Below are positions 46,195 to 64,000 of a stretch of DNA of 64,000 bases, piece by piece; the stretch's first letter is position 1, and the number at the start of each line of letters is the position of its first letter. Source of the stretch: Naegleria gruberi (taxonomy: Eukaryota); the NCBI GenBank assembly GCA_000004985.1, contig GG738880.1, one strand, 5' to 3'. The position numbers were made by a program, and so were the translations under genes. The notes beneath the pieces are model-generated. The model was not told the DNA's origin. It searched no databases and was given only the letters and a program-made list of their open reading frames with translations.

Positions 46195-47039
46195 ATCCAC
46201 ATCATGTGAAAAACAATAAAAACATGAAAATATAAGATATCCACGATTTTCACAAATTATGCTACAAGACTCGAAATTATACATTCAACAACATAATAAA
46301 CATTATGAATTGTTGTTTTATTGTTGTTTGATTTGTAATTGGGCTATGAATCAACTCTGTAGCATGAAATATCGGAACTTGGTAAATTGACAACATGATG
46401 AAAATCTGATAATAAATACCTCTCCTACCTACTATTGACCATTCCGAACAATAATACATTGACACTTTTCCAACTTGTCCAGTAGATCCAGCAGTGATGA
46501 TGAATTTAGTGAAAATTTTGACATTTCACCAAAATTACATTGCTAAAAATTAATTTCCACAAATACTATTATTATATTGATGGAAAACAATAATGATGAT
46601 GGTTGGTGAATGATCCGATGATGGAACACCAACTTGGGATTTTCCAGCATGAAAAATAAATTCCAATTTCATGATGATAATGAACCAATAAAAATTACTA
46701 TTATTATTACTATATAGATCATGTTGAGATGATGATGTGAAAGTTTGGTGGTTTCATGATGTAAAACCACTCCGAAAATCATGATGTCCTCCTTGAGTAG
46801 AAGAATGTTGAATATTTTTTTATGAAGTTTTTGTGAGAATGGCGTAGCAGTTGTATTATTGGTGAAGTTATGGTCTATGTCTTTCAAAATTAAGTCCATC
46901 ATGATGATAATCCACTAATAAAATTACTACTATTCAGATCATGTTGAGGGGTTCGATTTATCTCTTGTTTTACTGTAACAAGTATTGCGCCCAAAATTGT
47001 TAAGGTACTTCCCGTGTGCTAAACTCAAGCTCCAAAAAA
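46195..47039 (+). repeat. Copy A of a duplicated ~0.85-kb non-coding segment that lies upstream of the histidine-kinase 5' region.
   Basis: About 97-98% identical to 48291..49274 (copy B). Copy B carries an extra ~140 bp at about 48517..48656. Both copies run from CATCATGTGAAAA... to ...GATTATTTAGCGAGTAA. Confidence 0.85.
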
Positions 47040-48240
47040 ATGTTTGAAAATAAGCCACTAACAAACATGCAAGATATTAACTCTGGAAAAGATTATTTAG
47101 CGAGTAAAAGAAGGAAGGAATGATGTTATCGGAGAAGGAATTTATCAGTGATGATATTGAAATTAATGATAACACAAAAGCTACATCTTCAAAAACACTT
47201 TTCAATATTTCATCACCTTCGTTTAGGAAGAGATTGGAACTGGGAGAGGATGTGCCATTCTCCAATAATTTTAATAATAATGTAAATAATTCAAACAATA
47301 TTGAAAAACAACAAACGGAAACAAGTTCATCATCAACTACAACAACACCGAGACCATCATTCATCAAAGCACCTTCATTACCTTCATTATCTTTTCCTAT
47401 TAAGAAAAGTTCATCAGTTTCTGATGATGTTAAAGAGATTGAATCTAAATTGAATGCTAATTGCAAGAATGGTGTGGAAAGGGCAATGTTATACATGTTG
47501 GCAAACCGATTGAATGTCAAGTTGTTGATTGGAGTTCTATTTGTGTTATCTTTTTTAAATAGCCTTAAAACATTAAGTTTTAATCAGAATATTTTGAGTA
47601 TTGTCCTATTTCTTGTTCAATTATATACTAACTATCATAGGAAGAATATTGATATGGCCATGTCCTATGAGGAGACTTTTAAAAGATTGGATGGGCAGGA
47701 AATGCAGAGAATGGTTGTTTCCTTGGTTCTCTACACAACCAGAATACTATTCCTTCCCGAACATAACATGATGTTTATTCCAGTTCTTTTCCTTTGGTTT
47801 GCTGGAGCTAACAAGTTGTACATTTACTCAACTTTTCATGGGCTATTCCCAACATTTTACACAAGCTTTCTCTACATTATGTGTGCTTGCTACCATTCGT
47901 ACCATGAGTATATTTTGAATGGATACTCTGCTCGATTCATTGGAATCATTGAGCAATATACAGTTATGACTGGCTGTGTTTGGATGTTCTCCTATTATTT
48001 TATTAATGTGACTGGTTATTTGAAACACAAGGTAGATAAATTGCAAGACACTAGAAAAAGGTTGGAATCAGCATTAGACGCTCGTAGTCGTTTCATGGCC
48101 CATATTTCACACGAGTTTAGATGTCCAATAATGTCAAGTATAGGGTGCTTGGAGTTGTTAAAAGAAACTCCATTGAATGAAAAACAAAATGATTTGGTTG
48201 ACACAATTGTTTCTTCAAATAGTGTTCTTTTGCTTTGATG
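47040..48240 (+). CDS. Hybrid sensor histidine kinase, 5' part, copy 1, with a multi-TM sensor region and the HisKA H-box. It is truncated by the N-gap at 48241, and a 1-nt homopolymer frameshift near 47110 lies upstream of the ORF-track start 47120.
   Basis: H-box is SRFMAHISHEFRCPIMSSIGCLELLKETPLNEKQNDLVDTIV. Several hydrophobic helices lie upstream. Copy 2 (49275..) is in frame from MFENKPLTNMQD, whereas copy 1 has AGTAAAAGAAGG against AGTAAGAAGG in copy 2. Confidence 0.6.
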
Positions 48241-48290
48241 NNNNNNNNNNNNNNNNNNNNNNNNNNNNNNNNNNNNNNNNNNNNNNNNNN
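48241..48290. other. Assembly gap (50 N).
   Basis: A run of N. Flanking sequence shows the contig break falls inside the duplicated unit. Confidence 0.99.
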
Positions 48291-49274
48291 CATCATGTGA
48301 AAACAATAAAAACATGAAAATATAAGATATCCACGATTTTCACAAATTTTGTTACAAGACTCGAAATTATACATTCAACAACATAATAAACATTATGAAT
48401 TGTTGTTTTATTGTTGTTTGATTTGTAATTGGGCTATGAATCAACTCTGGTAGCATCAAATATCGGAACTTGGTAAATTGACAACATGATGAAAATCTGA
48501 TAATAAATATGATGTTTATTATCTATTTAAATAGTAGTACTAAAAGACATGATTCAAGTTGGTGAAGTACATGTTGAGTTATGGTCCATGTACTTTTTAA
48601 AAATTCACATGTACCTATCCCTATCATAACTTGACCAAAATTGATAAGAGAAAGTTCTCCTACCTACTATTGACCATTCCGAACAATAATACATTGACAC
48701 TTTTCCAACTTGTCCAGTAGATCCAGCAGTGATGATGAATTTAGTGAAAATTTTGACATTTCACCAAAATTACATTGCTAAAAATTAATTTCCACAAATA
48801 CTATTATTATATTGATGGAAAACAATAATGATGATGGTTGGTGAATGATCCGATGATGGAACACCAACTTGGGATTTTCCAGCATGAAAAATAAATTCCA
48901 ATTTCATGATGATAATGAACCAATAAAAATTACTATTATTATTACTATATAGATCATGTTGAGATGATGATGTGAAAGTTTGGTGGTTTCATGATGTAAA
49001 ACCACTCCGAAAATCATGATGTCCTCCTTGAGTAGAAGAATGTTGAATATTTTTTTATGAAGTTTTTGTGAGAATGGCGTAGCAGTTGTATTATTGGTGA
49101 AGTTATGGTCTATGTCTTTCAAAATTAAGTCCATCATGATGATAATCCACTAATAAAATTACTACTATTCAGATCATGTTGAGGGGTTCGATTTATCTCT
49201 TGTTTTACTGTAACAAGTATTGCGCCCAAAATTGTTAAGGTACTTCCCGTGTGCTAAACTCAAGCTCCAAAAAA
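48291..49274 (+). repeat. Copy B of the duplicated upstream non-coding segment, with a ~140-bp insertion relative to copy A.
   Basis: It aligns with 46195..47039. The extra block is at about 48517..48656. Confidence 0.85.
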
Positions 49275-49734
49275 ATGTTTGAAAATAAGCCACTAACAAA
49301 CATGCAAGATATTAACTCTGGAAAAGATTATTTAGCGAGTAAGAAGGAAGGAATGATGTTATCGGAGAAGGAATTTATCAGTGATGATATTGAAATTAAT
49401 GATAACACAAAAGCTACTTCTTCAAAAACACTTTTCAATATTTCATCACCTTCGTTTAGGAAGAGATTGGAACTGGGAGAGGATGTACATGTGCCATTCT
49501 CCAATAATTTTAATAATAATGTAAATAATTCAAACAATATTGAAAAACAACAAACGGAAACAAGTTCATCATCAACTACAACAACACCGAGACCATCATT
49601 CATCAAAGCACCATCATTACCTTCATTATCTTTTCCTATTAAGAAAAGTTCATCAGTTTCTGATGATGTTAAAGAGATTGAATCCAAATTGAATGCTAAT
49701 TGCAAGAATGGTGTGGAAAGGGCAATGTTATACA
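49275..49734 (+). CDS. Hybrid sensor histidine kinase, 5' part, copy 2, truncated by the N-gap at 49735.
   Basis: About 98% identical to 47040..47500. It has an in-frame ATG at 49275 and a 6-nt indel relative to copy 1 (GEDVHVPF against GEDVPF). The ORF-track ORF 49251..50996 spans the gap artificially. Confidence 0.6.
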
Positions 49735-50119
49735 NNNNNNNNNNNNNNNNNNNNNNNNNNNNNNNNNNNNNNNNNNNNNNNNNNNNNNNNNNNNNNNNNN
49801 NNNNNNNNNNNNNNNNNNNNNNNNNNNNNNNNNNNNNNNNNNNNNNNNNNNNNNNNNNNNNNNNNNNNNNNNNNNNNNNNNNNNNNNNNNNNNNNNNNNN
49901 NNNNNNNNNNNNNNNNNNNNNNNNNNNNNNNNNNNNNNNNNNNNNNNNNNNNNNNNNNNNNNNNNNNNNNNNNNNNNNNNNNNNNNNNNNNNNNNNNNNN
50001 NNNNNNNNNNNNNNNNNNNNNNNNNNNNNNNNNNNNNNNNNNNNNNNNNNNNNNNNNNNNNNNNNNNNNNNNNNNNNNNNNNNNNNNNNNNNNNNNNNNN
50101 NNNNNNNNNNNNNNNNNNN
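49735..50119. other. Assembly gap (385 N).
   Basis: A run of N. Confidence 0.99.
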
Positions 50120-50156
50120 ATGGCAAGTGTCAAGACCTGTCACATTGATGAAAAAA

Positions 50157-51187
50157 ATGAATAGAGAAGATGTTCTTCTAATGTTGCATGATAAACCGAA
50201 TGAAAATGCAAATAGCTTGTTTGAACTATTGAAAATTAGAATGATGACAAGCAAAACCTCTAAAATTTCAAATCAATTTACAAAAGCAATTCGTATTGAT
50301 AATTGTAAACATGTGGAAACGCTTGGAACGCCAAATAAGTATGGAAAGCCTGCACGAGGACTCAACAACAAATTCTTCTTCAATATTCCGATGGATATTA
50401 CTATTTCATACAGGCACGAAACAATTTATGTTTGCGACTACAAAAATTACAAAATTCAAACATTTGATTTGGCTACCAAACAATTTATCACTTCAATTTC
50501 GACAATTCCGACGTGCTTTATCTACATTCAAGTGGACGATCAATTTGATCAATTATTTGGATTAGGATTTGATCGTTCCTTATATGTGGGAAAATTTGAG
50601 AAACCAAGTAAGGGAAGAGGTGGATTAAGTTTTGCAAGTTTGGAACGATTGAAAATGTCAGTAATGGAAGAATGTGGTCAATTTTCAAAGATTTGTTTGG
50701 ATAGAGAAATGGGGAGATTATACTTTATGGAAAATTCAAGGCAATTCAGAATTGGAGTATTGAGAACGATGGATTTGAGTATTGTAAATTTGATGCAAGT
50801 TGATTTTGATGAACAAGATCCAAGTGATGGGGACAAAATATTGTATTTGGATGGAAGAGGCAATTTATGTATTCTTTCGTTCCCTCTTGTTAAAAGCATT
50901 CCCTTGTCAATTGTGAATTCAAGGAAACAAGCTCACTTTGGCCAATTTGAAACATTATTGAGTTTACAGAAAAGATTTCCAATGTGTTCAAGATAGTAAC
51001 TGAGAAATCATCTGGGAATATATTAATTTCTATACCAATTCCTTTAACATCAACTCCTATTACCATTCAAAAAGGTCATCATCAAACATGGATCTTTCAT
51101 TCTGCTTCTGGAATGGAAATTAATGAAATTGAAGGTGAATTATTAATTGTAGAAAAGAAATCCTTCACTATTAAAATATTCAAATAA
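50157..51187 (+). pseudogene. NHL-repeat (beta-propeller) protein gene, copy 1. It carries a 1-nt frameshift near 50958 relative to copy 2, which is either pseudogenisation or a homopolymer error.
   Basis: NHL-like blades are IYVCDYKNYKIQTFDLATKQFITSI, GRLYFMENSRQFRIGVL and GELLIVEKKSFTIKIF. Copy 1 reads CATTATTGAGTTT where copy 2 reads CATTATTTGAGTTT. The reading frame continues in ORF 50984..51187. Confidence 0.5.
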
Positions 51188-51188
51188 T

Positions 51189-53752
51189 TTACATGTAATC
51201 TACAACAGTTGTATGAGGTGGATAAACTTCCTGAACTTGATTGTTGACAGTTGAATAATATTGCTTGAACAATTCAAATCTGGTGTTCTTTCCAGAAGAT
51301 TCCAATATGTGAGCAAAATACCCAATGCTCTTAATCAATTTTCTGGCAGGATACGATTTGATGTATTCATCATTTTGAACAACAGCTGTCAAATTAGCTT
51401 CATAATCTCTGAGCATGTTAATAATTTCATCATTATTCAACCCTTCAAAGTTCTTGTCATAGAAGAAATATTTTCCAAACTCTGAGAATTTCTGATTTGC
51501 CTTTTGCTGTTCCAACTCGTACATCCATTCTTGAAATTTTGTTACAATTTTTGTAAACCTTTCAACTTACCATCACCTTCAATAGTATTTTCCTTTTCAA
51601 CTTCATAAACAACCGAAACTTTTCCTTCTTGTGAATTTTCAACAACTTCCATCAACTTGTCAACTGGTCTGGATACAAACTTTTTCAGAGTTGACTCATC
51701 CATTGTTCCCTCATCAGCCAACACATCACATCTCAAGTCGTCTGCCAAAAAAGCAAGTTTTTCAGCATTGATAGGAACTGAACCAACAACAGAAAATGTT
51801 CTAAATGAACTAGTTCCCAAATTTCCTGCATAGCACTTTCCACTACTGACTCCAATGGCACATCTGATATGGGTTTTCGATGTTTCATTGATTGTTACTA
51901 ATAATTTTCTCAATTTCAAAGCAGCTTCCAAAGCCAAAACATTTGACGATTTTCGACCATTTCCTTCCACAGACGAAACATAAATCTGATAATCATCCAC
52001 AGTAATAACTTGAAAATCACCTTGTATAGATTTAGAAACAGCACTCAACCCAGAAACAATCTTTGAAAATATGTGTCCAATATCAGCAACATTCAAATCT
52101 GTTGAAAAATCAATTAATTTGATTCTTACAACTGCTCCTTGTTTACAATTCAGACCAATTTTGAAAAGAGAATTTCCCACTTCTTGAACTTTGGATGCCA
52201 TTGAGGAAGTTCTTGAACTATTGTTACTAAAATGACGACTTCCATGAGATTCCAAATCTATTGAGGCAGCATCACTATTCGAAACTGGGTGATTCTTATG
52301 TTTCTTTGATTTGGTGTTGGCTTGGGATTCATCTGTTTTTTTGGTATTTTCTTCTTTCATATTTCTCAATTGTAAAAATACACTTTCTGGAATAAATGTC
52401 TTAATTTCGTTTAACCATACTGTCATTTCATATAAATAAAGGTAAATCAAATCGACTTCTTTAAACTTGCTTGCAGTAATATTCACCTGATCTAGTTCCA
52501 TAGTTTTGATTTTCATAAATTCTCTTTCTAAAATTGTAAATGGATTTGTGACAATGTGTCCAATAGTGATAGACATGATTACACCAACAATGATAATCAA
52601 AATGGTAATACCAACAGATACTCCAGTTGTAATATTTGTTACCATTTCAACTTCTTGCTTATCAACCACAATGAAAACATTCCATTCCAAGTTGACCAAT
52701 GTGAAATTTGACTTTACAATGAAAAAACCATCAAAGTCAATAAAAATTGGTGTGTTAGTCCACCCCTTATAATTCTGATAAACCCTGTTCAATAAACTTC
52801 CAGAACCCTTATCAATCAAGTCAAATAACGAAACTCTAGAACTTCCATCCAAAGCAGTAGTATTGATATTTCCACCAATGACAAGATTATTGGTTTCTGC
52901 CACAATCACATAACCACTAGTGAGTACTTGTACTGTTTTCAAAAAGCTTTCAATAATTCTCAATGAAATATTCGTTTTTGTAATGCCAACTACCTTTTTA
53001 ATTCCATTGCTATAATAGGTAGGATCATATAATTTGGCACAATAGTAAGTTGTATAACTTGGATTGCCAGGAATTGCATAAGGAATGCCGAATACACCAT
53101 CTAATCCCAAAGAGGAATAAAAACCAAAAGTAGTTTTCCAATAACTTTGAGCATTCACTTCATAATTAGGAGATGCCTTGACCAGTGACTTGGCAGTTGT
53201 GTTAGGAGTTGAAGTATCCAATGAAATTGCATATAACATAAATTCAGTCGTTGGTGTATGATACCAAACAACAATTTCATTGGGTGGAGCTCCGTAAACA
53301 TTGACACTGTCAAGACTGTCATTAAAAAATAAACCAATTCCGTATGGCTTGAAAGTGTTGTAATATTTGTAAAGATAGGCAAGCGATGGTTGACGAGGAA
53401 CAAGTCCTAAATTGTAATCCTCAGCCATTGACTCAGTTGCTGAAATATAAGGTTTCAGTTGACCGTTCATATAGTTCAGTACTGAACCACTGATGGTATG
53501 CATCAATTGAGTTGATAAGGAACTCAGGGCTTCTCGAGATCCTATGAAAGAAGATAACCAAATTAAAATTGAACAGCAAACTAATAGAGAAGTGATTAGA
53601 ATAATGATAAATGTTCTAACCGAAATGATTCCACCACATGTTGTTGGTTTGATTGGAGCTATTTTGGTTTTCTCCTCGGTTTCGTCTTCGTTGAGGAGAG
53701 GATTTTGTTCTTTGAGACTGTCTAGGGATGCTGTGAATGGTTGTATTTTCAT
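51189..53752 (-). CDS. Membrane sensor with a class-III nucleotidyl-cyclase homology domain (ACG-like), paralog 2. Exons are 51580..53752 and 51189..51538.
   Basis: TM1 is IIILITSLLVCCSILIWLSSFIG. An extracytoplasmic domain follows, then TM2 (VSVGITILIIIVGVIMSITIG). The cyclase-like blocks are VVRIKLIDFSTDL, QVITVDDYQIYVS and IRCAIGVSSGKCYAGNLGTSSFRTFSVVGSVPINAEKLA. A GTAAGT donor at 51579 and a TTTCAAG acceptor at 51539 give a 41-nt intron. It joins in frame to ORF 51189..51524, whose start (EWMYELEQQ) matches the EWLYELDNL tail block of paralog 1. Confidence 0.6.
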
Positions 53753-55002
53753 GATTAGTTTTGAATAGTTTTTTTAAAAATTTGAAATCATTTGAAAGGT
53801 AGTTTGATTCAATCTCGTTTGAAAATTTAGAAATCTCACCACATATGCGTTTATGGTGGAGATAACAACAATTACCTGTTTGAATATTTCCTTAACTTCT
53901 CCATTCTATTCACAACCCATCATATACTGTTAACTTTAAACGAAAATTTACAGCGCTCATTTAGAATGATTCAACTCTGTTCCCATCACTTGATGTTAAA
54001 CAACCAAATGTTTTTTCTACTTTGAAAGAGAATCTTCCTTAAAATTCGATAGGTGACAGAAATAAAAGGGTGTAGGTGTAAAAACGTCTCTTGTATCAAT
54101 AACGACCTGAGAGAACAATAGGTGACAGAAAAGAAAAAGATGTTGTTGCATTTCAGCTATCTCCCTTGATTTTTTTTGCTATAGTAAATTCGTTTATTTA
54201 AACATAGTTGTTTGGTAAATTACTTAGTGAAGATTCATATCATTGATTATATTTCTTATCGTCTATTAATGATGTAAATATGATGTTTTCATTTCTTATA
54301 TCTGTGGTCAGGTTCTCGGCGCATTTTTGTGATGCTTCCAAAAAACATGGAATGCTCCCAAAGCTGATTTACCTGTAGGGGTAATTGGATGCGCCAATAA
54401 CACCGATTTATTACTTAAGCAAATTCACTCAACTTCAACAAAGCGTATCTCAATAACAACACTGGATGTTAGAGAAACATACCGTATGGTCATTATTAAT
54501 TATGTTAACAATCATAATATCAAGTTTGTTACAGATTTGGCTCTTTACTTATCGAGAAAAGTGATTTCAAAATTTTCATATGTGGTAGTAAGACGAGCAT
54601 GTTTTCTTGGTTAATACAAATAACTGATATTCAATAAAACAGAATCTTGTAGAAAACATCAATTAGAACAAGAATAATAAATAATATTTTTATTTCACTA
54701 AGTATTAAATTTAATATTTCCTTTTTTGTAAGGAGCATTGCAAAAATACGGGAAAAACATTTCCACAGATATTGATAGATATTTAAAGGTTAAGGATAAC
54801 GGTCAAATTGAGTTGAATGGAAGTGAATATTGAGATATGTATACTACTGTTGAAGAAGTATCACCTTCACTATAATTACTGACATGAGTATAACAATTGA
54901 ACATATGATTCCTGTATCAATAATTCATTATTCAATGATTTTGATATGATGGGGTTGGATTAGATATCCACTTTTGGGTTTGGATCCCATGTCAACCCCT
55001 AT

Positions 55003-58000
55003 NNNNNNNNNNNNNNNNNNNNNNNNNNNNNNNNNNNNNNNNNNNNNNNNNNNNNNNNNNNNNNNNNNNNNNNNNNNNNNNNNNNNNNNNNNNNNNNNNN
55101 NNNNNNNNNNNNNNNNNNNNNNNNNNNNNNNNNNNNNNNNNNNNNNNNNNNNNNNNNNNNNNNNNNNNNNNNNNNNNNNNNNNNNNNNNNNNNNNNNNNN
55201 NNNNNNNNNNNNNNNNNNNNNNNNNNNNNNNNNNNNNNNNNNNNNNNNNNNNNNNNNNNNNNNNNNNNNNNNNNNNNNNNNNNNNNNNNNNNNNNNNNNN
55301 NNNNNNNNNNNNNNNNNNNNNNNNNNNNNNNNNNNNNNNNNNNNNNNNNNNNNNNNNNNNNNNNNNNNNNNNNNNNNNNNNNNNNNNNNNNNNNNNNNNN
55401 NNNNNNNNNNNNNNNNNNNNNNNNNNNNNNNNNNNNNNNNNNNNNNNNNNNNNNNNNNNNNNNNNNNNNNNNNNNNNNNNNNNNNNNNNNNNNNNNNNNN
55501 NNNNNNNNNNNNNNNNNNNNNNNNNNNNNNNNNNNNNNNNNNNNNNNNNNNNNNNNNNNNNNNNNNNNNNNNNNNNNNNNNNNNNNNNNNNNNNNNNNNN
55601 NNNNNNNNNNNNNNNNNNNNNNNNNNNNNNNNNNNNNNNNNNNNNNNNNNNNNNNNNNNNNNNNNNNNNNNNNNNNNNNNNNNNNNNNNNNNNNNNNNNN
55701 NNNNNNNNNNNNNNNNNNNNNNNNNNNNNNNNNNNNNNNNNNNNNNNNNNNNNNNNNNNNNNNNNNNNNNNNNNNNNNNNNNNNNNNNNNNNNNNNNNNN
55801 NNNNNNNNNNNNNNNNNNNNNNNNNNNNNNNNNNNNNNNNNNNNNNNNNNNNNNNNNNNNNNNNNNNNNNNNNNNNNNNNNNNNNNNNNNNNNNNNNNNN
55901 NNNNNNNNNNNNNNNNNNNNNNNNNNNNNNNNNNNNNNNNNNNNNNNNNNNNNNNNNNNNNNNNNNNNNNNNNNNNNNNNNNNNNNNNNNNNNNNNNNNN
56001 NNNNNNNNNNNNNNNNNNNNNNNNNNNNNNNNNNNNNNNNNNNNNNNNNNNNNNNNNNNNNNNNNNNNNNNNNNNNNNNNNNNNNNNNNNNNNNNNNNNN
56101 NNNNNNNNNNNNNNNNNNNNNNNNNNNNNNNNNNNNNNNNNNNNNNNNNNNNNNNNNNNNNNNNNNNNNNNNNNNNNNNNNNNNNNNNNNNNNNNNNNNN
56201 NNNNNNNNNNNNNNNNNNNNNNNNNNNNNNNNNNNNNNNNNNNNNNNNNNNNNNNNNNNNNNNNNNNNNNNNNNNNNNNNNNNNNNNNNNNNNNNNNNNN
56301 NNNNNNNNNNNNNNNNNNNNNNNNNNNNNNNNNNNNNNNNNNNNNNNNNNNNNNNNNNNNNNNNNNNNNNNNNNNNNNNNNNNNNNNNNNNNNNNNNNNN
56401 NNNNNNNNNNNNNNNNNNNNNNNNNNNNNNNNNNNNNNNNNNNNNNNNNNNNNNNNNNNNNNNNNNNNNNNNNNNNNNNNNNNNNNNNNNNNNNNNNNNN
56501 NNNNNNNNNNNNNNNNNNNNNNNNNNNNNNNNNNNNNNNNNNNNNNNNNNNNNNNNNNNNNNNNNNNNNNNNNNNNNNNNNNNNNNNNNNNNNNNNNNNN
56601 NNNNNNNNNNNNNNNNNNNNNNNNNNNNNNNNNNNNNNNNNNNNNNNNNNNNNNNNNNNNNNNNNNNNNNNNNNNNNNNNNNNNNNNNNNNNNNNNNNNN
56701 NNNNNNNNNNNNNNNNNNNNNNNNNNNNNNNNNNNNNNNNNNNNNNNNNNNNNNNNNNNNNNNNNNNNNNNNNNNNNNNNNNNNNNNNNNNNNNNNNNNN
56801 NNNNNNNNNNNNNNNNNNNNNNNNNNNNNNNNNNNNNNNNNNNNNNNNNNNNNNNNNNNNNNNNNNNNNNNNNNNNNNNNNNNNNNNNNNNNNNNNNNNN
56901 NNNNNNNNNNNNNNNNNNNNNNNNNNNNNNNNNNNNNNNNNNNNNNNNNNNNNNNNNNNNNNNNNNNNNNNNNNNNNNNNNNNNNNNNNNNNNNNNNNNN
57001 NNNNNNNNNNNNNNNNNNNNNNNNNNNNNNNNNNNNNNNNNNNNNNNNNNNNNNNNNNNNNNNNNNNNNNNNNNNNNNNNNNNNNNNNNNNNNNNNNNNN
57101 NNNNNNNNNNNNNNNNNNNNNNNNNNNNNNNNNNNNNNNNNNNNNNNNNNNNNNNNNNNNNNNNNNNNNNNNNNNNNNNNNNNNNNNNNNNNNNNNNNNN
57201 NNNNNNNNNNNNNNNNNNNNNNNNNNNNNNNNNNNNNNNNNNNNNNNNNNNNNNNNNNNNNNNNNNNNNNNNNNNNNNNNNNNNNNNNNNNNNNNNNNNN
57301 NNNNNNNNNNNNNNNNNNNNNNNNNNNNNNNNNNNNNNNNNNNNNNNNNNNNNNNNNNNNNNNNNNNNNNNNNNNNNNNNNNNNNNNNNNNNNNNNNNNN
57401 NNNNNNNNNNNNNNNNNNNNNNNNNNNNNNNNNNNNNNNNNNNNNNNNNNNNNNNNNNNNNNNNNNNNNNNNNNNNNNNNNNNNNNNNNNNNNNNNNNNN
57501 NNNNNNNNNNNNNNNNNNNNNNNNNNNNNNNNNNNNNNNNNNNNNNNNNNNNNNNNNNNNNNNNNNNNNNNNNNNNNNNNNNNNNNNNNNNNNNNNNNNN
57601 NNNNNNNNNNNNNNNNNNNNNNNNNNNNNNNNNNNNNNNNNNNNNNNNNNNNNNNNNNNNNNNNNNNNNNNNNNNNNNNNNNNNNNNNNNNNNNNNNNNN
57701 NNNNNNNNNNNNNNNNNNNNNNNNNNNNNNNNNNNNNNNNNNNNNNNNNNNNNNNNNNNNNNNNNNNNNNNNNNNNNNNNNNNNNNNNNNNNNNNNNNNN
57801 NNNNNNNNNNNNNNNNNNNNNNNNNNNNNNNNNNNNNNNNNNNNNNNNNNNNNNNNNNNNNNNNNNNNNNNNNNNNNNNNNNNNNNNNNNNNNNNNNNNN
57901 NNNNNNNNNNNNNNNNNNNNNNNNNNNNNNNNNNNNNNNNNNNNNNNNNNNNNNNNNNNNNNNNNNNNNNNNNNNNNNNNNNNNNNNNNNNNNNNNNNNN

Positions 58001-59675
58001 NNNNNNNNNNNNNNNNNNNNNNNNNNNNNNNNNNNNNNNNNNNNNNNNNNNNNNNNNNNNNNNNNNNNNNNNNNNNNNNNNNNNNNNNNNNNNNNNNNNN
58101 NNNNNNNNNNNNNNNNNNNNNNNNNNNNNNNNNNNNNNNNNNNNNNNNNNNNNNNNNNNNNNNNNNNNNNNNNNNNNNNNNNNNNNNNNNNNNNNNNNNN
58201 NNNNNNNNNNNNNNNNNNNNNNNNNNNNNNNNNNNNNNNNNNNNNNNNNNNNNNNNNNNNNNNNNNNNNNNNNNNNNNNNNNNNNNNNNNNNNNNNNNNN
58301 NNNNNNNNNNNNNNNNNNNNNNNNNNNNNNNNNNNNNNNNNNNNNNNNNNNNNNNNNNNNNNNNNNNNNNNNNNNNNNNNNNNNNNNNNNNNNNNNNNNN
58401 NNNNNNNNNNNNNNNNNNNNNNNNNNNNNNNNNNNNNNNNNNNNNNNNNNNNNNNNNNNNNNNNNNNNNNNNNNNNNNNNNNNNNNNNNNNNNNNNNNNN
58501 NNNNNNNNNNNNNNNNNNNNNNNNNNNNNNNNNNNNNNNNNNNNNNNNNNNNNNNNNNNNNNNNNNNNNNNNNNNNNNNNNNNNNNNNNNNNNNNNNNNN
58601 NNNNNNNNNNNNNNNNNNNNNNNNNNNNNNNNNNNNNNNNNNNNNNNNNNNNNNNNNNNNNNNNNNNNNNNNNNNNNNNNNNNNNNNNNNNNNNNNNNNN
58701 NNNNNNNNNNNNNNNNNNNNNNNNNNNNNNNNNNNNNNNNNNNNNNNNNNNNNNNNNNNNNNNNNNNNNNNNNNNNNNNNNNNNNNNNNNNNNNNNNNNN
58801 NNNNNNNNNNNNNNNNNNNNNNNNNNNNNNNNNNNNNNNNNNNNNNNNNNNNNNNNNNNNNNNNNNNNNNNNNNNNNNNNNNNNNNNNNNNNNNNNNNNN
58901 NNNNNNNNNNNNNNNNNNNNNNNNNNNNNNNNNNNNNNNNNNNNNNNNNNNNNNNNNNNNNNNNNNNNNNNNNNNNNNNNNNNNNNNNNNNNNNNNNNNN
59001 NNNNNNNNNNNNNNNNNNNNNNNNNNNNNNNNNNNNNNNNNNNNNNNNNNNNNNNNNNNNNNNNNNNNNNNNNNNNNNNNNNNNNNNNNNNNNNNNNNNN
59101 NNNNNNNNNNNNNNNNNNNNNNNNNNNNNNNNNNNNNNNNNNNNNNNNNNNNNNNNNNNNNNNNNNNNNNNNNNNNNNNNNNNNNNNNNNNNNNNNNNNN
59201 NNNNNNNNNNNNNNNNNNNNNNNNNNNNNNNNNNNNNNNNNNNNNNNNNNNNNNNNNNNNNNNNNNNNNNNNNNNNNNNNNNNNNNNNNNNNNNNNNNNN
59301 NNNNNNNNNNNNNNNNNNNNNNNNNNNNNNNNNNNNNNNNNNNNNNNNNNNNNNNNNNNNNNNNNNNNNNNNNNNNNNNNNNNNNNNNNNNNNNNNNNNN
59401 NNNNNNNNNNNNNNNNNNNNNNNNNNNNNNNNNNNNNNNNNNNNNNNNNNNNNNNNNNNNNNNNNNNNNNNNNNNNNNNNNNNNNNNNNNNNNNNNNNNN
59501 NNNNNNNNNNNNNNNNNNNNNNNNNNNNNNNNNNNNNNNNNNNNNNNNNNNNNNNNNNNNNNNNNNNNNNNNNNNNNNNNNNNNNNNNNNNNNNNNNNNN
59601 NNNNNNNNNNNNNNNNNNNNNNNNNNNNNNNNNNNNNNNNNNNNNNNNNNNNNNNNNNNNNNNNNNNNNNNNNNN
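55003..59675. other. Large assembly gap (4,673 N).
   Basis: A run of N. The poly-X ORFs 54974..59707 and 54992..59698 are artefacts of translating N. Confidence 0.99.
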
Positions 59676-60605
59676 ATAAAATGAGCGAGTTGGAGCATAA
59701 TCTTTGATTTTATGTCAAAGGTCTATAGTAAAATGATAGAGTTGACAACTCAATATCTACTGAACCAAAATTAATGAAATTGATATTATATGCTAATTAG
59801 AGTGTCTACATATCATGGTATTAATTTCAGTGAAAATGGAGTTGTTTCTATATCTTTCAGATTTCCAGCCATTCTCTTGAAATATCACCATGTACTATCT
59901 ACTGAATGCATTTGTTGAAATGAAATTATATAATTTGATGAAATTACACTTTATTTGAGATGTAGAACACGATATTATCATTTATTTTGAGATTGGTAAC
60001 TTTTCCTATAGTGTCATCCTTAATTGTCTTAATTGACTAAAAAAGGTCAAGGAGATATTTCAAAATATAAAATAAATTATATTTTCGAGATGTACTATTG
60101 ATTTCCAATCGATTGATATGTATTTTGTTGATTGACGAAGTGGTTCTCTATTTGAAGATTTCCTCCTTGATCTTTAAAGACAACCTTGAAATTTCACCCT
60201 TTACCTTACTGAAAGATAGAATATTCTCCAAAATGTCTGAAAATTGAACCATATACATTATTTGAGATGTTGAACATGGTGGTAAAGTTGCATAGAGTGG
60301 TCATTTTCCAGATTTTCATCCATGTCCACAGTTGACTAATTGGTATGATAGAGTTGAAATCATGAACATGAAAGTGAAAATAAACTTGATTTTCTATCTC
60401 TACTCGTAGAGTGAAGCATTTTCATGTATATATTGTTGGTTGAAGTGATGTATTTGATAGAGTTAGTGTGACTTGTCTTTCCTTAAAGTCAACCATAAAA
60501 TATCAACATTTACCTTCCCATTATACCATTTCTGATTATTAAGACATGAAATTGAATTCTATATCATTATATATCATGTACATCATTTTGGTAAAGTTTT
60601 AATAG

Positions 60606-60906
60606 GTGGTTTGGGTTTGGGTTTGGGTTTGGGTTTGGGTTTGGGTTTGGGTTTGGGTTTGGGTTTGGGTTTGGGTTTGGGTTTGGGTTTGGGTTTGGGT
60701 TTGGGTTTGGGTTTGGGTTTGGGTTTGGGTTTGGGTTTGGGTTTGGGTTTGGGTTTGGGTTTGGGTTTGGGTTTGGGTTTGGGTTTGGGTTTGGGTTTGG
60801 GTTTGGGTTTGGGTTTGGGTTTGGGTTGGGTTTGGGTTTGGGTTTGGGTTTGGGTTTGGGTTTGGGTTTGGGTTTGGGTTTGGGTTTGGGTTTGGGTTTG
60901 GGTTAA
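60606..60906 (+). repeat. (GGGTTT)n hexanucleotide array of about 50 units with one GGGTT variant. Telomere-like, G-rich strand on the plus strand, and it ends in a gap.
   Basis: Perfect 6-bp periodicity with a single 5-mer variant near 60826. The three 'ORFs' over it (GLGL, WVWV, PKPK/TQTQ) are artefacts of the open frames of a hexamer repeat. Confidence 0.9.
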
Positions 60907-60956
60907 NNNNNNNNNNNNNNNNNNNNNNNNNNNNNNNNNNNNNNNNNNNNNNNNNN
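60907..60956. other. Assembly gap (50 N).
   Basis: A run of N. Confidence 0.99.
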
Positions 60957-61995
60957 AAGGATGAGGATCCAAATGTAACAACCTTTAATTTGTTCGAATC
61001 GTTGAAGGCCATGACGAACATTATTTCAGGTTACGCTTCCACATTTAAGGTAAATTTGAAATTGGAAATTGATTCCAAGATTAAGGACATGTTCGTTCAC
61101 TCAAATTCTTCCAAACTCCACCAAATATTATTAAATTTATTGACAAACGCTGTAAAGGCTTCAAAGCAAGGTGATTCTGTATGGTTAAAAAGTAGACTAT
61201 TGGAAGATTATGGAGATTCTGTAACTGTCAGATTTATTTGTGAAGATACTGGATGCGGAATTCCACAAAATTTGATTTCTTCTATTTTTGAACCATTCGT
61301 GCAATTACAAAACAGCTCACAATCCAAAGTGCCAAGTTCTGGACTCGGACTCACTACTGTTTCACATCTAATCAAATCGATGGATGGTCAAATTAGCGTT
61401 CTCTCTCAAGTCGGAAAAGGAAGTATTTTCACAGTTGATTTGCCATTCAAATTAAAACCAAGCAAGTTCCAAGAAAATAGTGATCGTAATGGTAATCCAG
61501 AAGATAGGCGATCAAAACTTCACCTTAGCGTTCATAAGAGCTATTTAACAATGATGACAGACTTGGAAAAGAATGAAAAAGAAAAGGAGAAAAAGTCAAA
61601 GTTTAATTCTAAAATATTGATTGCAGAAGATAATCCTATTAACAGAAAAGTTATTGTCAAGATGATAAATAGTTTAGGGCACGAAACAGATTATGTTTGT
61701 GATGGAAAGGAACTGGTTGAGAACTTTAATCCAAAAACTCACAAGGTTGTAATTACAGATATGGTATGTTGAAAAATCAATATTTAATGTATGCTCATCT
61801 AATTAGAATATGCCAAATATGAATGGATTGGAAGCTACTAAGGTTCTAAGAGAAAAATATGGAGATTCATTCAAGATTTATTTATTAACAGGTAATGTGA
61901 CAGTCTCTTTGACAGATGTTGATGATATGGGTTTATTGGATGGCATTCTAACAAAGCCCTGTTCTAAACAAGAGCTTGAGAAATGTATTACGTAA
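60957..61995 (+). CDS. Hybrid sensor histidine kinase, 3' part (HATPase_c catalytic domain plus receiver domain). The 5' end is lost in the gap. Exons are 60957..61763 and 61807..61995.
   Basis: N-box is LLNLLTNAVKAS, G1 is EDTGCGIP, G2 is SGLGLT. The receiver opens with KILIAEDNPINRKVIVKMINSLGHETDYVCDGKELVENF...VVITDM. A 43-nt GTATGT..AATTAG intron leads in frame to NMPNMNGLEATKVLREK...IYLLTGN...ILTKP, giving the D-x2-MP receiver signature. A TAA stop is at 61993. Confidence 0.8.
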
Positions 61996-62040
61996 AGTGA
62001 ATTTGGCAAGTGTCAAGACCTGTCAAATTGATGAAAAAAA

Positions 62041-62932
62041 ATGAATAGAGAAGATGTTCTTCTAATGTTGCATGATAAACCGAATGAAAATGCAAATAGC
62101 TTGTTTGAACTATTGAAAATTAGAATGATGACAAGCAAAACCTCTAAAATTTCAAATCAATTTACAAAAGTAATTCGTATTGATAATTGTAAACATGTGG
62201 AAACGCTTGGAACGCCAAATAAATATGGAAAGCCTGCACGAGGACTCAACAACAAATTCTTCTTCAATATTCCGATGGATATTACTATTTCATACAGGCA
62301 CGAAACAATTTATGTTTGCGACTACAAAAATTACAAAATTCAAACATTTGATTTGGCTACCAAACAATTTATCACTTCAATTTCGACAATTCCGACGTGC
62401 TTTATCTACATTCAAGTGGATGATCAATTTGATCAATTATTTGGATTAGGATTTGATCGTTCCTTATATGTGGGAAAATTTGAGAAACCAAGTAAGGGAA
62501 GAGGTGGATTAAGTTTTGCAAGTTTGGAAAGTATAATCTTCCCATTTCTCTATCCATACAAATCTTTGAAAATTGACCACATTCTTCCATTAGTGACATT
62601 TTCAATCGTTTATGGAAAATTCAAGGCAATTCAGAATTGGAGTATTGAGAACGATGGATTTGAATATTGTAAATTTGATGCAAGTTGATTTTGATGAACA
62701 AGATCCAAGTGATGGGGACAAAGTATTGTATTTGGATGGAAGAGGCAATTTATGTATTCTTTCATTCCCTCTTGTTAAAAGTATACCCTTGTCAATTGTG
62801 AATTCAAGGAAACAAGCTCACTTTGGCCAATTTGAAACATTATTTGAGTTTACAGAAAAGATTTCAAATGTGTTCAAGATAGCAACTGAGCAATCGTCTG
62901 GGAATATATTAATTTCCATACCAATTCCTTTG
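62041..62932 (+). pseudogene. NHL-repeat protein gene, copy 2, lying directly downstream of the HK 3' end. It is disrupted by an ~81-bp internal inversion (62530..62610) and truncated by the gap at 62933.
   Basis: About 97% identical to 50157..51050. The segment 62530..62610 is the reverse complement of copy 1 at about 50648..50728. The correct peptide KMSLMEECGQFSKICMDREMGRLYF is encoded on the minus strand (ORF 62402..62605). The forward frame is broken into ORFs 62041..62688 and 62612..62989. Confidence 0.5.
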
Positions 62933-62982
62933 NNNNNNNNNNNNNNNNNNNNNNNNNNNNNNNNNNNNNNNNNNNNNNNNNN
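62933..62982. other. Assembly gap (50 N).
   Basis: A run of N. Confidence 0.99.
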
Positions 62983-63679
62983 TTATTGAAATACCATGAT
63001 TAACTGATCCATTATAACACATTATAATTGAAAGATTTTAAAATTAATATGATTTGACAATCTTGACATTTATAATTCCCATGATTACACTCCTGACATG
63101 TTGAATGATTTCAAATTGTCATGAAACTGATACAGTAGTGTTTATTCACCTTCACTAAGGTCCTATATCAGTTTCATGATGATCTGTATAGTGGATGTGA
63201 TTGTCACATCCCTATAGGTGTCAAGTAGATCAGCCATGTAGCATGTATGATATGGATGAATGTCAAAATGATATTAATGTATTTCATTATCATGTATAGA
63301 TGTATTGGAAGTGAATTGAAGTGGTATAGATTTCTATCTTCAATGTTAGTATAGGTGAGTTGACAAGTTGAATATTAAATATCCTGATATGATACCTAAG
63401 TATTTGAAATTGATATATATTGTTATTAACATGATTTGCAAGGTGATATATTGATATGAAATGATTTTGAAATGTTTTCATTGATATTCTAATTGTCTAA
63501 TCTATTATATGAAATTAACTTATATAAGTCATTATAATGATGTAATATTATGTTATAATATGATTATATATTCAATTTGGAGTATATTGATATATAATAT
63601 ATTGATTTATAATGAGTATTTATTGAGATAATCAATTAAGATGAATAAAAGTCAAAATGTTGGGTCTGACCTTAGTCGT

Positions 63680-64000
63680 GGGTTTGGGTTTGGGTTTGGG
63701 TTTGGGTTTGGGTTTGGGTTTGGGTTTGGGTTTGGGTTTGGGTTGGGTTGGGTTGGGTTTGGGTTTGGGTTTGGGTTTGGGTTTGGGTTTGGGTTTGGGT
63801 TTGGGTTTGGGTTTGGGTTTGGGTTTGGGTTTGGGTTTGGGTTTGGGTTTGGGTTTGGGTTTGGGTTTGGGTTTGGGTTTGGGTTTGGGTTTGGGTTTGG
63901 GTTTGGGTTTGGGTTTGGGTTTGGGTTTGGGTTTGGGTTTGGGTTTGGGTTTGGGTTTGGGTTTGGGTTTGGGTTTGGGTTTGGGTTTGGGTTTGGGTTT
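63680..64000 (+). repeat. (GGGTTT)n array with three GGGTT variants, running to the window end. Candidate terminal telomeric repeat with the G-strand oriented 5'->3' toward the end.
   Basis: More than 50 perfect hexamer units. It is preceded by a ~700-bp AT-rich ORF-free spacer (62983..63679). It has the same orientation as the array at 60606. Confidence 0.85.

What the first reader, a model, noticed from the sequence alone, without database searches (positions are those of the whole stretch)
60606..64000. The histidine-kinase 3' half and an NHL gene copy sit between two same-orientation (GGGTTT)n arrays, consistent with a chromosome end and a possible telomere misjoin
Perfect GGGTTT hexamer arrays occur at 60606..60906 (about 50 units) and 63680..64000 (more than 50 units, reaching the window edge). 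Both have the G-rich strand on the plus strand, running 5'->3' toward the right. That is the polarity expected of a right-arm telomere. Ahead of the terminal array is a 0.7-kb AT-rich ORF-free spacer. The internal array ends in a 50-N scaffold gap and is followed at once by the 3' half of the hybrid HK and a second NHL gene copy. That unit also occurs about 10 kb upstream. One explanation is a genuine subtelomeric duplication with an interstitial telomere tract, as from chromosome healing or end fusion. Another is that the scaffolder joined two telomere-bearing contigs. If TTTGGG is the telomeric unit, this also reports the telomere repeat of the organism.
Basis: partly seen in the sequence, partly recalled or inferred. 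Interest (0 to 1): 0.7.

Follow-up and report, generated by a model that had tools for sequence, protein, structure and literature searches.

The report
Naegleria telomere repeats, mis-scaffolded contig
The two TTTGGG arrays are ordinary telomere repeats of the amoeba Naegleria gruberi (a motif already proposed in 2013), and the gene fragment that seems to sit between them is a small contig put in the wrong place by the assembler, so this is an assembly problem rather than unusual chromosome biology.

Summary
Near-perfect (GGGTTT)n arrays lie at 60613-60906 and 63680-64000, both G-rich on the + strand (94 matches against 0 expected). The window is the public Naegleria gruberi assembly: an annotated protein maps exactly onto it. 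TTTGGG was already published as this species' candidate telomere repeat (Fulneckova 2013). The last 16 kb is six contigs (A-F) joined by five N gaps, and each array is the 3' end of a ~1-kb contig (D, F). The block between the arrays (contig E, 60957-62932) is misplaced. Its histidine-kinase 3' half continues the 5' half that stops at the 50-N gap at 48241: paralogues show 18 residues (54 bp) missing. E's last 928 bp overlaps the start of contig C (50121-51045). D and F are unrelated, so at most one caps this arm. A real second chromosome end (E-F-telomere on the other homologue) is not excluded. Interest is low: the motif is known, and the main practical value is correcting the assembly and annotation.

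The parts
47120..48240 (+). Hybrid histidine kinase, 5' half, at the end of contig A. It stops at the gap inside the HisKA domain.
   Evidence: Pfam HisKA profile positions 1-48 of 66 match residues 321-368 of 372. The last residues ...DTIVSSNSVLLL align to paralogues that continue LIEDILQIVK. The terminal 'stop' looks like a 1-nt deletion at the contig end.
48241..48290 (.). 50-N gap where contig E (60957-62932) belongs.
   Evidence: Alignment A1: the 5' half ends at column 398 and the E half starts at column 417, so 18 aa (54 bp) is missing.
48291..49734 (+). Contig B: a redundant copy (other allele or second tandem copy) of 46200-47495, covering the HK upstream region and N-terminus.
   Evidence: Self-BLAST gives 98% identity. 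There are 6 substitutions in ~1.3 kb plus indels, including a 144-bp insertion, and B is wholly contained within A's range.
49735..50119 (.). 385-N gap, used as an 'intron' by the chimeric public gene model P0009.
   Evidence: P0009 residues 1-150 map to 49275-49724 and residues 152-402 map to 50241-50993.
50120..51045 (+). Start of contig C: the HK 3' flank plus the NHL-like gene. It dovetails with the last 928 bp of contig E.
   Evidence: 50121-50645 matches 62004-62529 at 99%, and 50724-51045 matches 62609-62931 at 96.6%.
55003..59675 (.). 4673-N gap. Contig D is tied to the chromosome arm only by scaffolding information.
59676..60612 (+). Contig D unique part: AT-rich (29% GC), ORF-poor telomere-adjacent sequence.
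   Evidence: Unique in the window and with no similarity to F. Sequence read.
60613..60906 (+). Telomere array 1, (GGGTTT)35 GGGTT (GGGTTT)12 GGGTTAA, forming the 3' end of contig D.
60907..60956 (.). 50-N scaffold gap: an artefactual join between telomere array 1 and contig E.
   Evidence: E's true neighbour is contig A.
60957..61995 (+). Hybrid histidine kinase, 3' half (contig E): exon 60957-61763, intron 61764-61806, exon 61807-61995 including the stop codon.
   Evidence: HATPase_c 86 bits. Response_reg matches profile positions 1-110 of 111 (68.9 bits) only after splicing. 59-62% identical to full-length N. gruberi paralogues.
62041..62932 (+). NHL-like gene copy on contig E, cut by the next gap. 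It carries the 83-bp inverted segment at 62528-62610, which breaks its frame.
   Evidence: The Pfam NHL hit is sub-threshold.
62933..62982 (.). 50-N scaffold gap between contigs E and F. The linkage is unverified.
62983..63679 (+). Contig F unique part: AT-rich (26% GC), ORF-free telomere-adjacent sequence, unrelated to D or to the sequence downstream of 51046.
63680..64000 (+). Telomere array 2, (GGGTTT)10 (GGGTT)3 (GGGTTT)41, forming the 3' end of contig F and of the window.

Best explanation
Both arrays are genuine TTTGGG telomere tracts of Naegleria gruberi. The G-rich strand runs 5'->3' toward the chromosome end. By inference from general telomere biology, it is extended by telomerase on an RNA template that is a permutation of CCCAAA. 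Each array was captured only as far as reads starting in a ~0.7-0.9-kb unique telomere-adjacent sequence (contigs D and F) could reach. The apparent 'interstitial' position of array 1, and the gene block after it, come from scaffolding. Contig E (HK 3' half plus NHL-like gene) is the direct continuation of contig A across the ~50-bp gap at 48241-48290, and it dovetails with the start of contig C. This part of the heterozygous diploid genome assembled into redundant pieces: A/E against B/C-start. These are most likely two alleles, less likely a recent ~4-kb tandem duplication. The leftover contig E was then parked, with minimal 50-N gaps, between two small telomere-bearing contigs. Those two were themselves probably linked through mate pairs that fall in indistinguishable telomere repeats. 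At most one of D and F is the true cap of this arm.

Shown: the organism; the arrays; the contig structure; the continuity of the gene across A and E; the E/C overlap; the lack of similarity between D and F; and the absence of any contig that starts with telomere repeats. Inferred: telomerase synthesis; the mate-pair cause of the misjoin; and allelic rather than tandem origin of the redundancy.
For: Organism and assembly: the annotated N. gruberi protein P0009 maps exactly onto window 49275-49724 plus 50241-50993.

Telomere identity: the arrays are 99% perfect, all on the + strand, with 0 matches expected by chance. Each lies at the 3' end of a contig, and one is at the window end. TTTGGG is listed as the candidate telomere repeat of N. 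gruberi (PMC3622300).

Misplacement of E: the HK 5' half ends at HisKA profile position 48 of 66, exactly at the gap. E begins 50 aa before HATPase_c and gives a complete receiver domain after splicing. Three paralogues carry both halves in one chain, and alignment shows only 18 aa (54 bp) missing, against a 50-N gap. The sequence after the HK stop codon in E is the sequence that starts contig C.

Redundancy: B is contained within A's range at 0.46% substitutions. E and C form a dovetail overlap. Naegleria is described as a heterozygous diploid (PMC9928731).

No junction: no contig begins with telomere-like sequence. D and F share nothing.
Against: No reads or mate-pair data could be examined, so the cause of the misjoin is inferred. 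The scaffold gap between B and C (385 N) is about 1.5 kb smaller than a full second copy would need. E and C differ by an 83-bp inversion and by 3.4% over the last 323 bp, which is more than the 0.46% between A and B. E could therefore be a paralogous copy rather than a simple allele. The E-F link (50 N) might be genuine. I could not confirm that the window end is the scaffold end, nor inspect other N. gruberi scaffold ends.
Confidence: 0.8

Rival explanations
1. Structural heterozygosity or a paralogous end. The E-F-telomere linkage is real. On the second homologue (or at another chromosome end that holds a copy of the HK 3'/NHL segment), the chromosome ends ~2.7 kb after the HK mid-point, with a broken NHL-like gene followed by an unrelated 0.7-kb AT-rich sequence and a telomere. 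The other homologue runs on through contig C to D and its telomere. Only the D-E join is then an artefact.
For: E's NHL-like copy has its frame broken by the 83-bp inversion, and divergence from C rises to 3.4% toward E's end. F has no homology to the sequence that follows 51046 in C. E and F are adjacent, separated by a minimal gap.
Against: A 50-N gap is also used for the demonstrably false D-E join, so it carries no weight. The rising mismatch density at E's end is equally expected from low-quality read ends. De novo telomere healing would add repeats directly at the break, not 0.7 kb of foreign sequence. The HK 3' half on E is intact, and the 5' half on A needs it.
Confidence: 0.12
2. A genuine interstitial telomere tract. 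Array 1 is internal to the chromosome, left by end fusion, healing or subtelomeric duplication, and is followed by more chromosomal DNA up to the terminal array 2.
For: The two arrays share an orientation and lie ~3 kb apart in the scaffold. Subtelomeres with internal telomere-repeat tracts are known in other eukaryotes (general knowledge).
Against: Array 1 ends in a gap, and no array-to-unique junction exists. The sequence placed after it is a mid-gene fragment that belongs 12.7 kb upstream. The array is 99% perfect rather than degenerate. D and F are unrelated, so there is no repeated subtelomeric unit.
Confidence: 0.06
3. The HK-NHL redundancy is a true recent tandem duplication of a ~4.07-kb unit (order A-E-B-C), not two alleles. 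E is still misplaced and the telomere join is still artefactual.
For: Two copies of both the left part (A/B) and the right part (E/C-start) exist. Each copy has its own lesions: an inversion in E and a 1-bp frameshift in C.
Against: The scaffold distance from the end of A to the start of C is 1.88 kb. That is close to the single-locus path A-E-C (1.10 kb) and far from the ~5.3 kb a tandem pair would need. The 0.46% A/B divergence fits allelic variation in a heterozygous diploid.
Confidence: 0.25

Closest known systems
Candidate TTTGGG telomere repeat of Naegleria gruberi (Fulneckova et al. 2013, Genome Biol Evol, PMC3622300)
   Same: Same organism, same hexamer, same kind of evidence: arrays at the ends of assembled sequences of the public genome.
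   Different: Nothing new at the level of the motif. This window adds one concrete scaffold end with two telomere-adjacent sequences (D, F) and rare GGGTT variant units.
T/G-type telomerase repeats of ciliates (Tetrahymena TTGGGG; Paramecium TTGGGG/TTTGGG mix) - from general knowledge
   Same: A short TnGm unit lacking the A of TTAGGG-type repeats. Occasional variant units, as expected from template slippage.
   Different: Here the array is essentially pure T3G3 in a heterolobosean. No telomerase RNA or TERT was examined.
Interstitial telomeric sequences (ITS) from end fusion or healing
   Same: A telomere-repeat block that looks internal in the scaffold coordinates.
   Different: No contiguous right-hand junction, no repeat degeneration, and the 'downstream' DNA is a misplaced contig.
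Haplotype-redundant contigs and repeat-mediated false joins in draft assemblies of heterozygous genomes
   Same: A contained 98-99% duplicate contig (B), a dovetail overlap that was not merged (E/C), minimal fixed-size gaps, small terminal contigs, and a gene model spliced over a gap.
   Different: The read-level cause could not be inspected here.

Membership tests
Telomerase-type telomeric repeat array | Long tandem array of a short G/T-rich unit, far beyond chance | tested here: met
   49.7 and 54.2 copies at 99% matches. 94 matches against 0 expected in shuffles.
Telomerase-type telomeric repeat array | Lies at the end of the sequence, with the G-rich strand 5'->3' toward the end | tested here: met
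   Both arrays are the 3' ends of contigs D and F on the + strand. Array 2 reaches the window end. Whether that is the physical chromosome end cannot be tested here.
Telomerase-type telomeric repeat array | The same repeat caps other chromosome ends of the organism | not testable with these tools
   N. gruberi scaffolds could not be fetched. The literature names TTTGGG as the candidate repeat from database searches (PMC3622300).
Telomerase-type telomeric repeat array | Bal31 sensitivity, telomerase activity, and a matching telomerase RNA template | not testable with these tools
   These need experiments. Rfam found no telomerase RNA (or any other family) in this window, which says nothing about the rest of the genome.
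Interstitial telomeric sequence | Array flanked on both sides by non-telomeric chromosomal DNA in contiguous sequence | tested here: not met
   Array 1 ends at a 50-N gap, and no contig starts with telomere repeats. The following contig belongs at 48241.
Subtelomeric segmental duplication | The same block is present twice, with both copies anchored to different flanks | tested here: inconclusive
   Only the NHL-like part is present twice. The copies form a dovetail overlap consistent with one locus. The E-F link is a gap.
Hybrid histidine kinase | HisKA, HATPase_c and receiver domain in one chain | tested here: met
   HisKA is on contig A. HATPase_c and a complete Response_reg are on contig E after splicing. 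Paralogues carry HisKA and HATPase_c (both halves of the join) in one protein. This holds only if A and E are joined.
NHL repeat protein | Pfam NHL (PF01436) at or above the gathering score | tested here: not met
   One repeat at 14.5 bits against a cutoff of 20, E = 0.036, on the repaired 343-aa protein. No hit at E <= 0.01 on the raw ORFs.

The most novel reading that the evidence does not exclude
The two homologues of this N. gruberi chromosome arm end at different places. One runs through contig C to D and its telomere. The other is at least ~12 kb shorter and ends just after a decaying copy of the NHL-like gene, with a captured, unrelated telomere-adjacent sequence (F) and its own TTTGGG telomere. 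That would be a heterozygous terminal truncation or end capture in a free-living amoeba, and the scaffold would have merged the two ends into one line.
Probability: 0.12. Interest if true: 0.45.

Novelty: already known. Interest (0 to 1): 0.15.

Why it matters
The value is mostly practical. It flags one chromosome end in the N. gruberi reference. It shows that the last ~3 kb of this scaffold must not be read as an interstitial telomere or a subtelomeric duplication. It restores a complete hybrid histidine kinase that is split between 47120-48240 and 60957-61995. It also exposes a chimeric public gene model (P0009) spliced across a gap. It adds nothing new about telomere biology beyond the TTTGGG motif published in 2013.

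Tried and rejected
1. I looked for similarity between the two telomere-adjacent sequences D and F, and between each of them and the rest of the window. There was none, so there is no shared subtelomeric element.

2. I tried to fetch N. gruberi loci through exact-protein look-up, using two window ORFs, P0009 and P0001. None is on record, so other scaffold ends could not be inspected.

3. I scanned metagenome contigs for the F and D telomere junctions. Both gave 0 hits.

4. An Rfam scan of the window gave 0 hits.

5. The literature yielded no Naegleria paper with TTTGGG or CCCAAA other than Fulneckova 2013, and no telomere mention in the N. fowleri nanopore paper. The Cell 2010 genome paper and the mSphere 2021 paper are not held. 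A TERT search returned nothing relevant.

6. I considered a ciliate origin because of the T/G repeat and rejected it. There are no in-frame TAA or TAG codons in the HK reading frame, and the window matches an annotated N. gruberi protein exactly.

7. I considered whether the inverted 83 bp in E is an intron (GT...AG). Removing it does not restore the frame, so I rejected that (reading of the sequence).
Full report
**Observation**

Reading 60300-64000, Tandem Repeats Finder and a regex census confirm two near-perfect hexamer arrays.
- Array 1 is at 60613-60899: 35 GGGTTT units, one GGGTT, 12 more units, then GGGTTAA up to 60906. It is followed by exactly 50 N.
- Array 2 is at 63680-64000: 10 units, three GGGTT, then 41 units, running to the window edge.
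- All 94 matches to (GGGTTT)3 are on the + strand, and 100 dinucleotide shuffles give none.
- The other 60.6 kb holds only 4 GGGTTT and 5 AAACCC single hexamers.

| Piece | Coordinates | Note |
|---|---|---|
| Contig A | ...48240 | ends inside the HK gene |
| gap | 48241-48290 | 50 N |
| Contig B | 48291-49734 | |
| gap | 49735-50119 | 385 N |
| Contig C | 50120-55002 | |
| gap | 55003-59675 | 4673 N |
| Contig D | 59676-60906 | ends in array 1 |
| gap | 60907-60956 | 50 N |
| Contig E | 60957-62932 | HK 3' half + NHL-like gene |
| gap | 62933-62982 | 50 N |
| Contig F | 62983-64000 | ends in array 2 |

**Source**

A homology search with the reconstructed kinase returned Naegleria gruberi proteins. 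One of them, P0009, is a 402-aa 'predicted protein' on a 416,450-bp contig. It maps exactly onto the window: residues 1-150 at 49275-49724 and residues 152-402 at 50241-50993. The window is therefore the public N. gruberi assembly. Because array 2 ends exactly at the window edge, the window is probably the end of that scaffold; this is an inference.

**What is known about the repeat**

Fulneckova et al. 2013 (PMC3622300) state that no telomere information had been published for N. gruberi. They name TTTGGG as its unexpected candidate telomeric repeat, found by database searches. I found no later paper that confirms or contradicts this.

**The block between the arrays is misplaced**

- The ORF at 47120-48238 carries the N-terminal and transmembrane part of a histidine kinase. 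It stops inside HisKA, at profile position 48 of 66, exactly at the end of contig A.
- Contig E starts 50 residues before HATPase_c. After removal of a 43-nt GT-AG intron (61764-61806), it gives a complete receiver domain, profile positions 1-110 of 111.
- Three paralogues carry both halves in one chain and read ...SSNSV(I/L)LLLIEDILQIVKIEHE...K(K/D)ED...FN(I/L)FESLK.
- In alignment A1 the A fragment ends at column 398 and the E fragment begins at column 417. That is 18 residues, or 54 bp, missing, against a scaffold gap of 50 N at 48241-48290.
- The apparent stop codon at the end of A (CTT TGA TG) becomes LLLLI(E) if one T is restored. That is typical of a low-quality contig end.
- The sequence right after the kinase stop codon in E (62004 onward) is the sequence that opens contig C (50121 onward). 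E's last 928 bp and C's first 925 bp form a dovetail overlap at 99% and then 96.6% identity.

The kinase 3' half is present once, and it is the complement of the upstream 5' half.

**Why the assembly broke here**

- Contig B is a contained copy of 46200-47495. It has 6 substitutions in ~1.3 kb (0.46%) and several indels, including a 144-bp insertion.
- E and C differ by 4 substitutions in the first 526 bp, a clean 83-bp inversion, and then 11 substitutions and a 1-bp indel in 323 bp.
- Naegleria is described as a mainly heterozygous diploid, and heterozygosity was reported for N. gruberi (PMC9928731).
- The simplest reading is that two alleles were assembled separately (A/E and B/C-start) and then laid out in series.
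- A recent ~4-kb tandem duplication (A-E-B-C) is the alternative. It fits the scaffold distance between A and C worse: 1.88 kb observed, 1.10 kb for the single locus, and ~5.3 kb for a tandem pair.
- In either case E does not belong after array 1.

**The telomere-bearing contigs**

- D (937 bp unique, 29% GC) and F (697 bp unique, 26% GC) are unrelated to each other and to everything else in the window.
- No contig begins with telomere-like sequence. The arrays occur only at the 3' ends of D and F.
- Array 1 is as perfect as array 2, unlike decayed interstitial tracts.
- D is attached to the arm only across a 4.7-kb gap, and F only across a 50-N gap.
- The ~300-bp array lengths are lower bounds. 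I infer that they are set by how far reads starting in the unique sequence could extend into the repeat.
- A plausible cause of the D...F order is clone mates made purely of telomere repeats being placed in the other contig's array. That would put F's array a few kb downstream of D. This is inference, and I could not inspect reads.
- At most one of D and F caps this arm. The other belongs to another chromosome end or to the second homologue.

**Mechanism**

The arrays are telomeric DNA. The G-rich strand points to the end. By analogy with all T/G-type telomeres, it is made by telomerase copying a CCCAAA-permuted RNA template. The rare GGGTT units fit occasional slippage or sequencing compression. 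None of this was tested here, and Rfam found no RNA family in the window. The 'interstitial telomere with a duplicated gene unit' is an assembly construct.

**What remains open**

The E-F link could be real. E's NHL-like copy is broken by the inversion, and its divergence from C rises toward its end. That would fit a decaying copy next to a second, different chromosome end, either on the other homologue or on another chromosome. I give this about 12%. A true interstitial tract gets about 6%. Long reads from the existing NEG-M nanopore data set (PMC12695648) or two simple PCRs would settle all of this.

**Verdict**

Interest is low. The practical value lies in correcting the assembly and annotation.

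Noticed in passing
window 50644-50726 vs 62528-62610: The two copies of the NHL-like gene differ by a clean 83-bp inversion (3 mismatches inside it). The flanks are perfectly collinear, with only 2-3 bp of overlap at the edges. The orientation in contig C keeps a continuous ORF (...ICLDREMGRLYFMENSRQFRIGVL...), and the orientation in contig E breaks the frame. It could be a real micro-inversion polymorphism or an assembly or cloning artefact.
   Followed up: partly
window 49275-49724 + 50241-50993: The public N. gruberi gene model P0009 (402 aa, 'predicted protein') is a chimera. The N-terminus of the histidine kinase on contig B is spliced across the 385-N gap onto the NHL-like gene on contig C.
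   Followed up: yes
window 48225-48240: Contig A ends ...CTTTTGCTTTGATG, which gives a stop codon after SVLLL. Paralogues read SV(I/L)LLLIED, so one T is probably missing at the contig end and the stop is false.
   Followed up: partly
window 61764-61806; protein P0001: A 43-nt GT-AG intron splits the receiver domain (ITDM | NMPNMNG). The annotated paralogue P0001 ends ...VVFTDMVGSSNFVF. That looks like read-through into the equivalent intron, so its receiver domain is probably truncated in the annotation.
   Followed up: partly
window 41172-43661 (+) and 51542-53752 (-): Two divergent paralogues (29% identity over 736 aa, E = 2e-94) encode receptor-like membrane proteins. One has a weak, sub-threshold adenylate/guanylate cyclase hit. 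They flank the kinase locus in opposite orientations.
   Followed up: partly
window 48509-48655, 49483-49488, 47106-47107: Contig B carries a 144-bp insertion and a 6-bp in-frame insertion (EDVHVPF against EDVPF) relative to A. A has 2 extra bp that put the upstream MFENK... extension of the kinase out of frame. These are either allelic indels or sequencing errors.
   Followed up: no
window 50958 vs 62843: A 1-bp indel ends the NHL-like ORF early in contig C (...FETLLSLQKRFPMCSR*), while contig E reads on (...FETLFEFTEKISNVFK...). Each copy thus carries a different lesion. A repaired gene gives a 343-aa protein with only a sub-threshold NHL hit.
   Followed up: partly
window 53760-55002: The last ~1.2 kb of contig C has no ORF of 70 aa or more and ends at the 4.7-kb gap. 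Gene-dense sequence therefore stops about 10 kb (in scaffold coordinates) before the terminal array.
   Followed up: no
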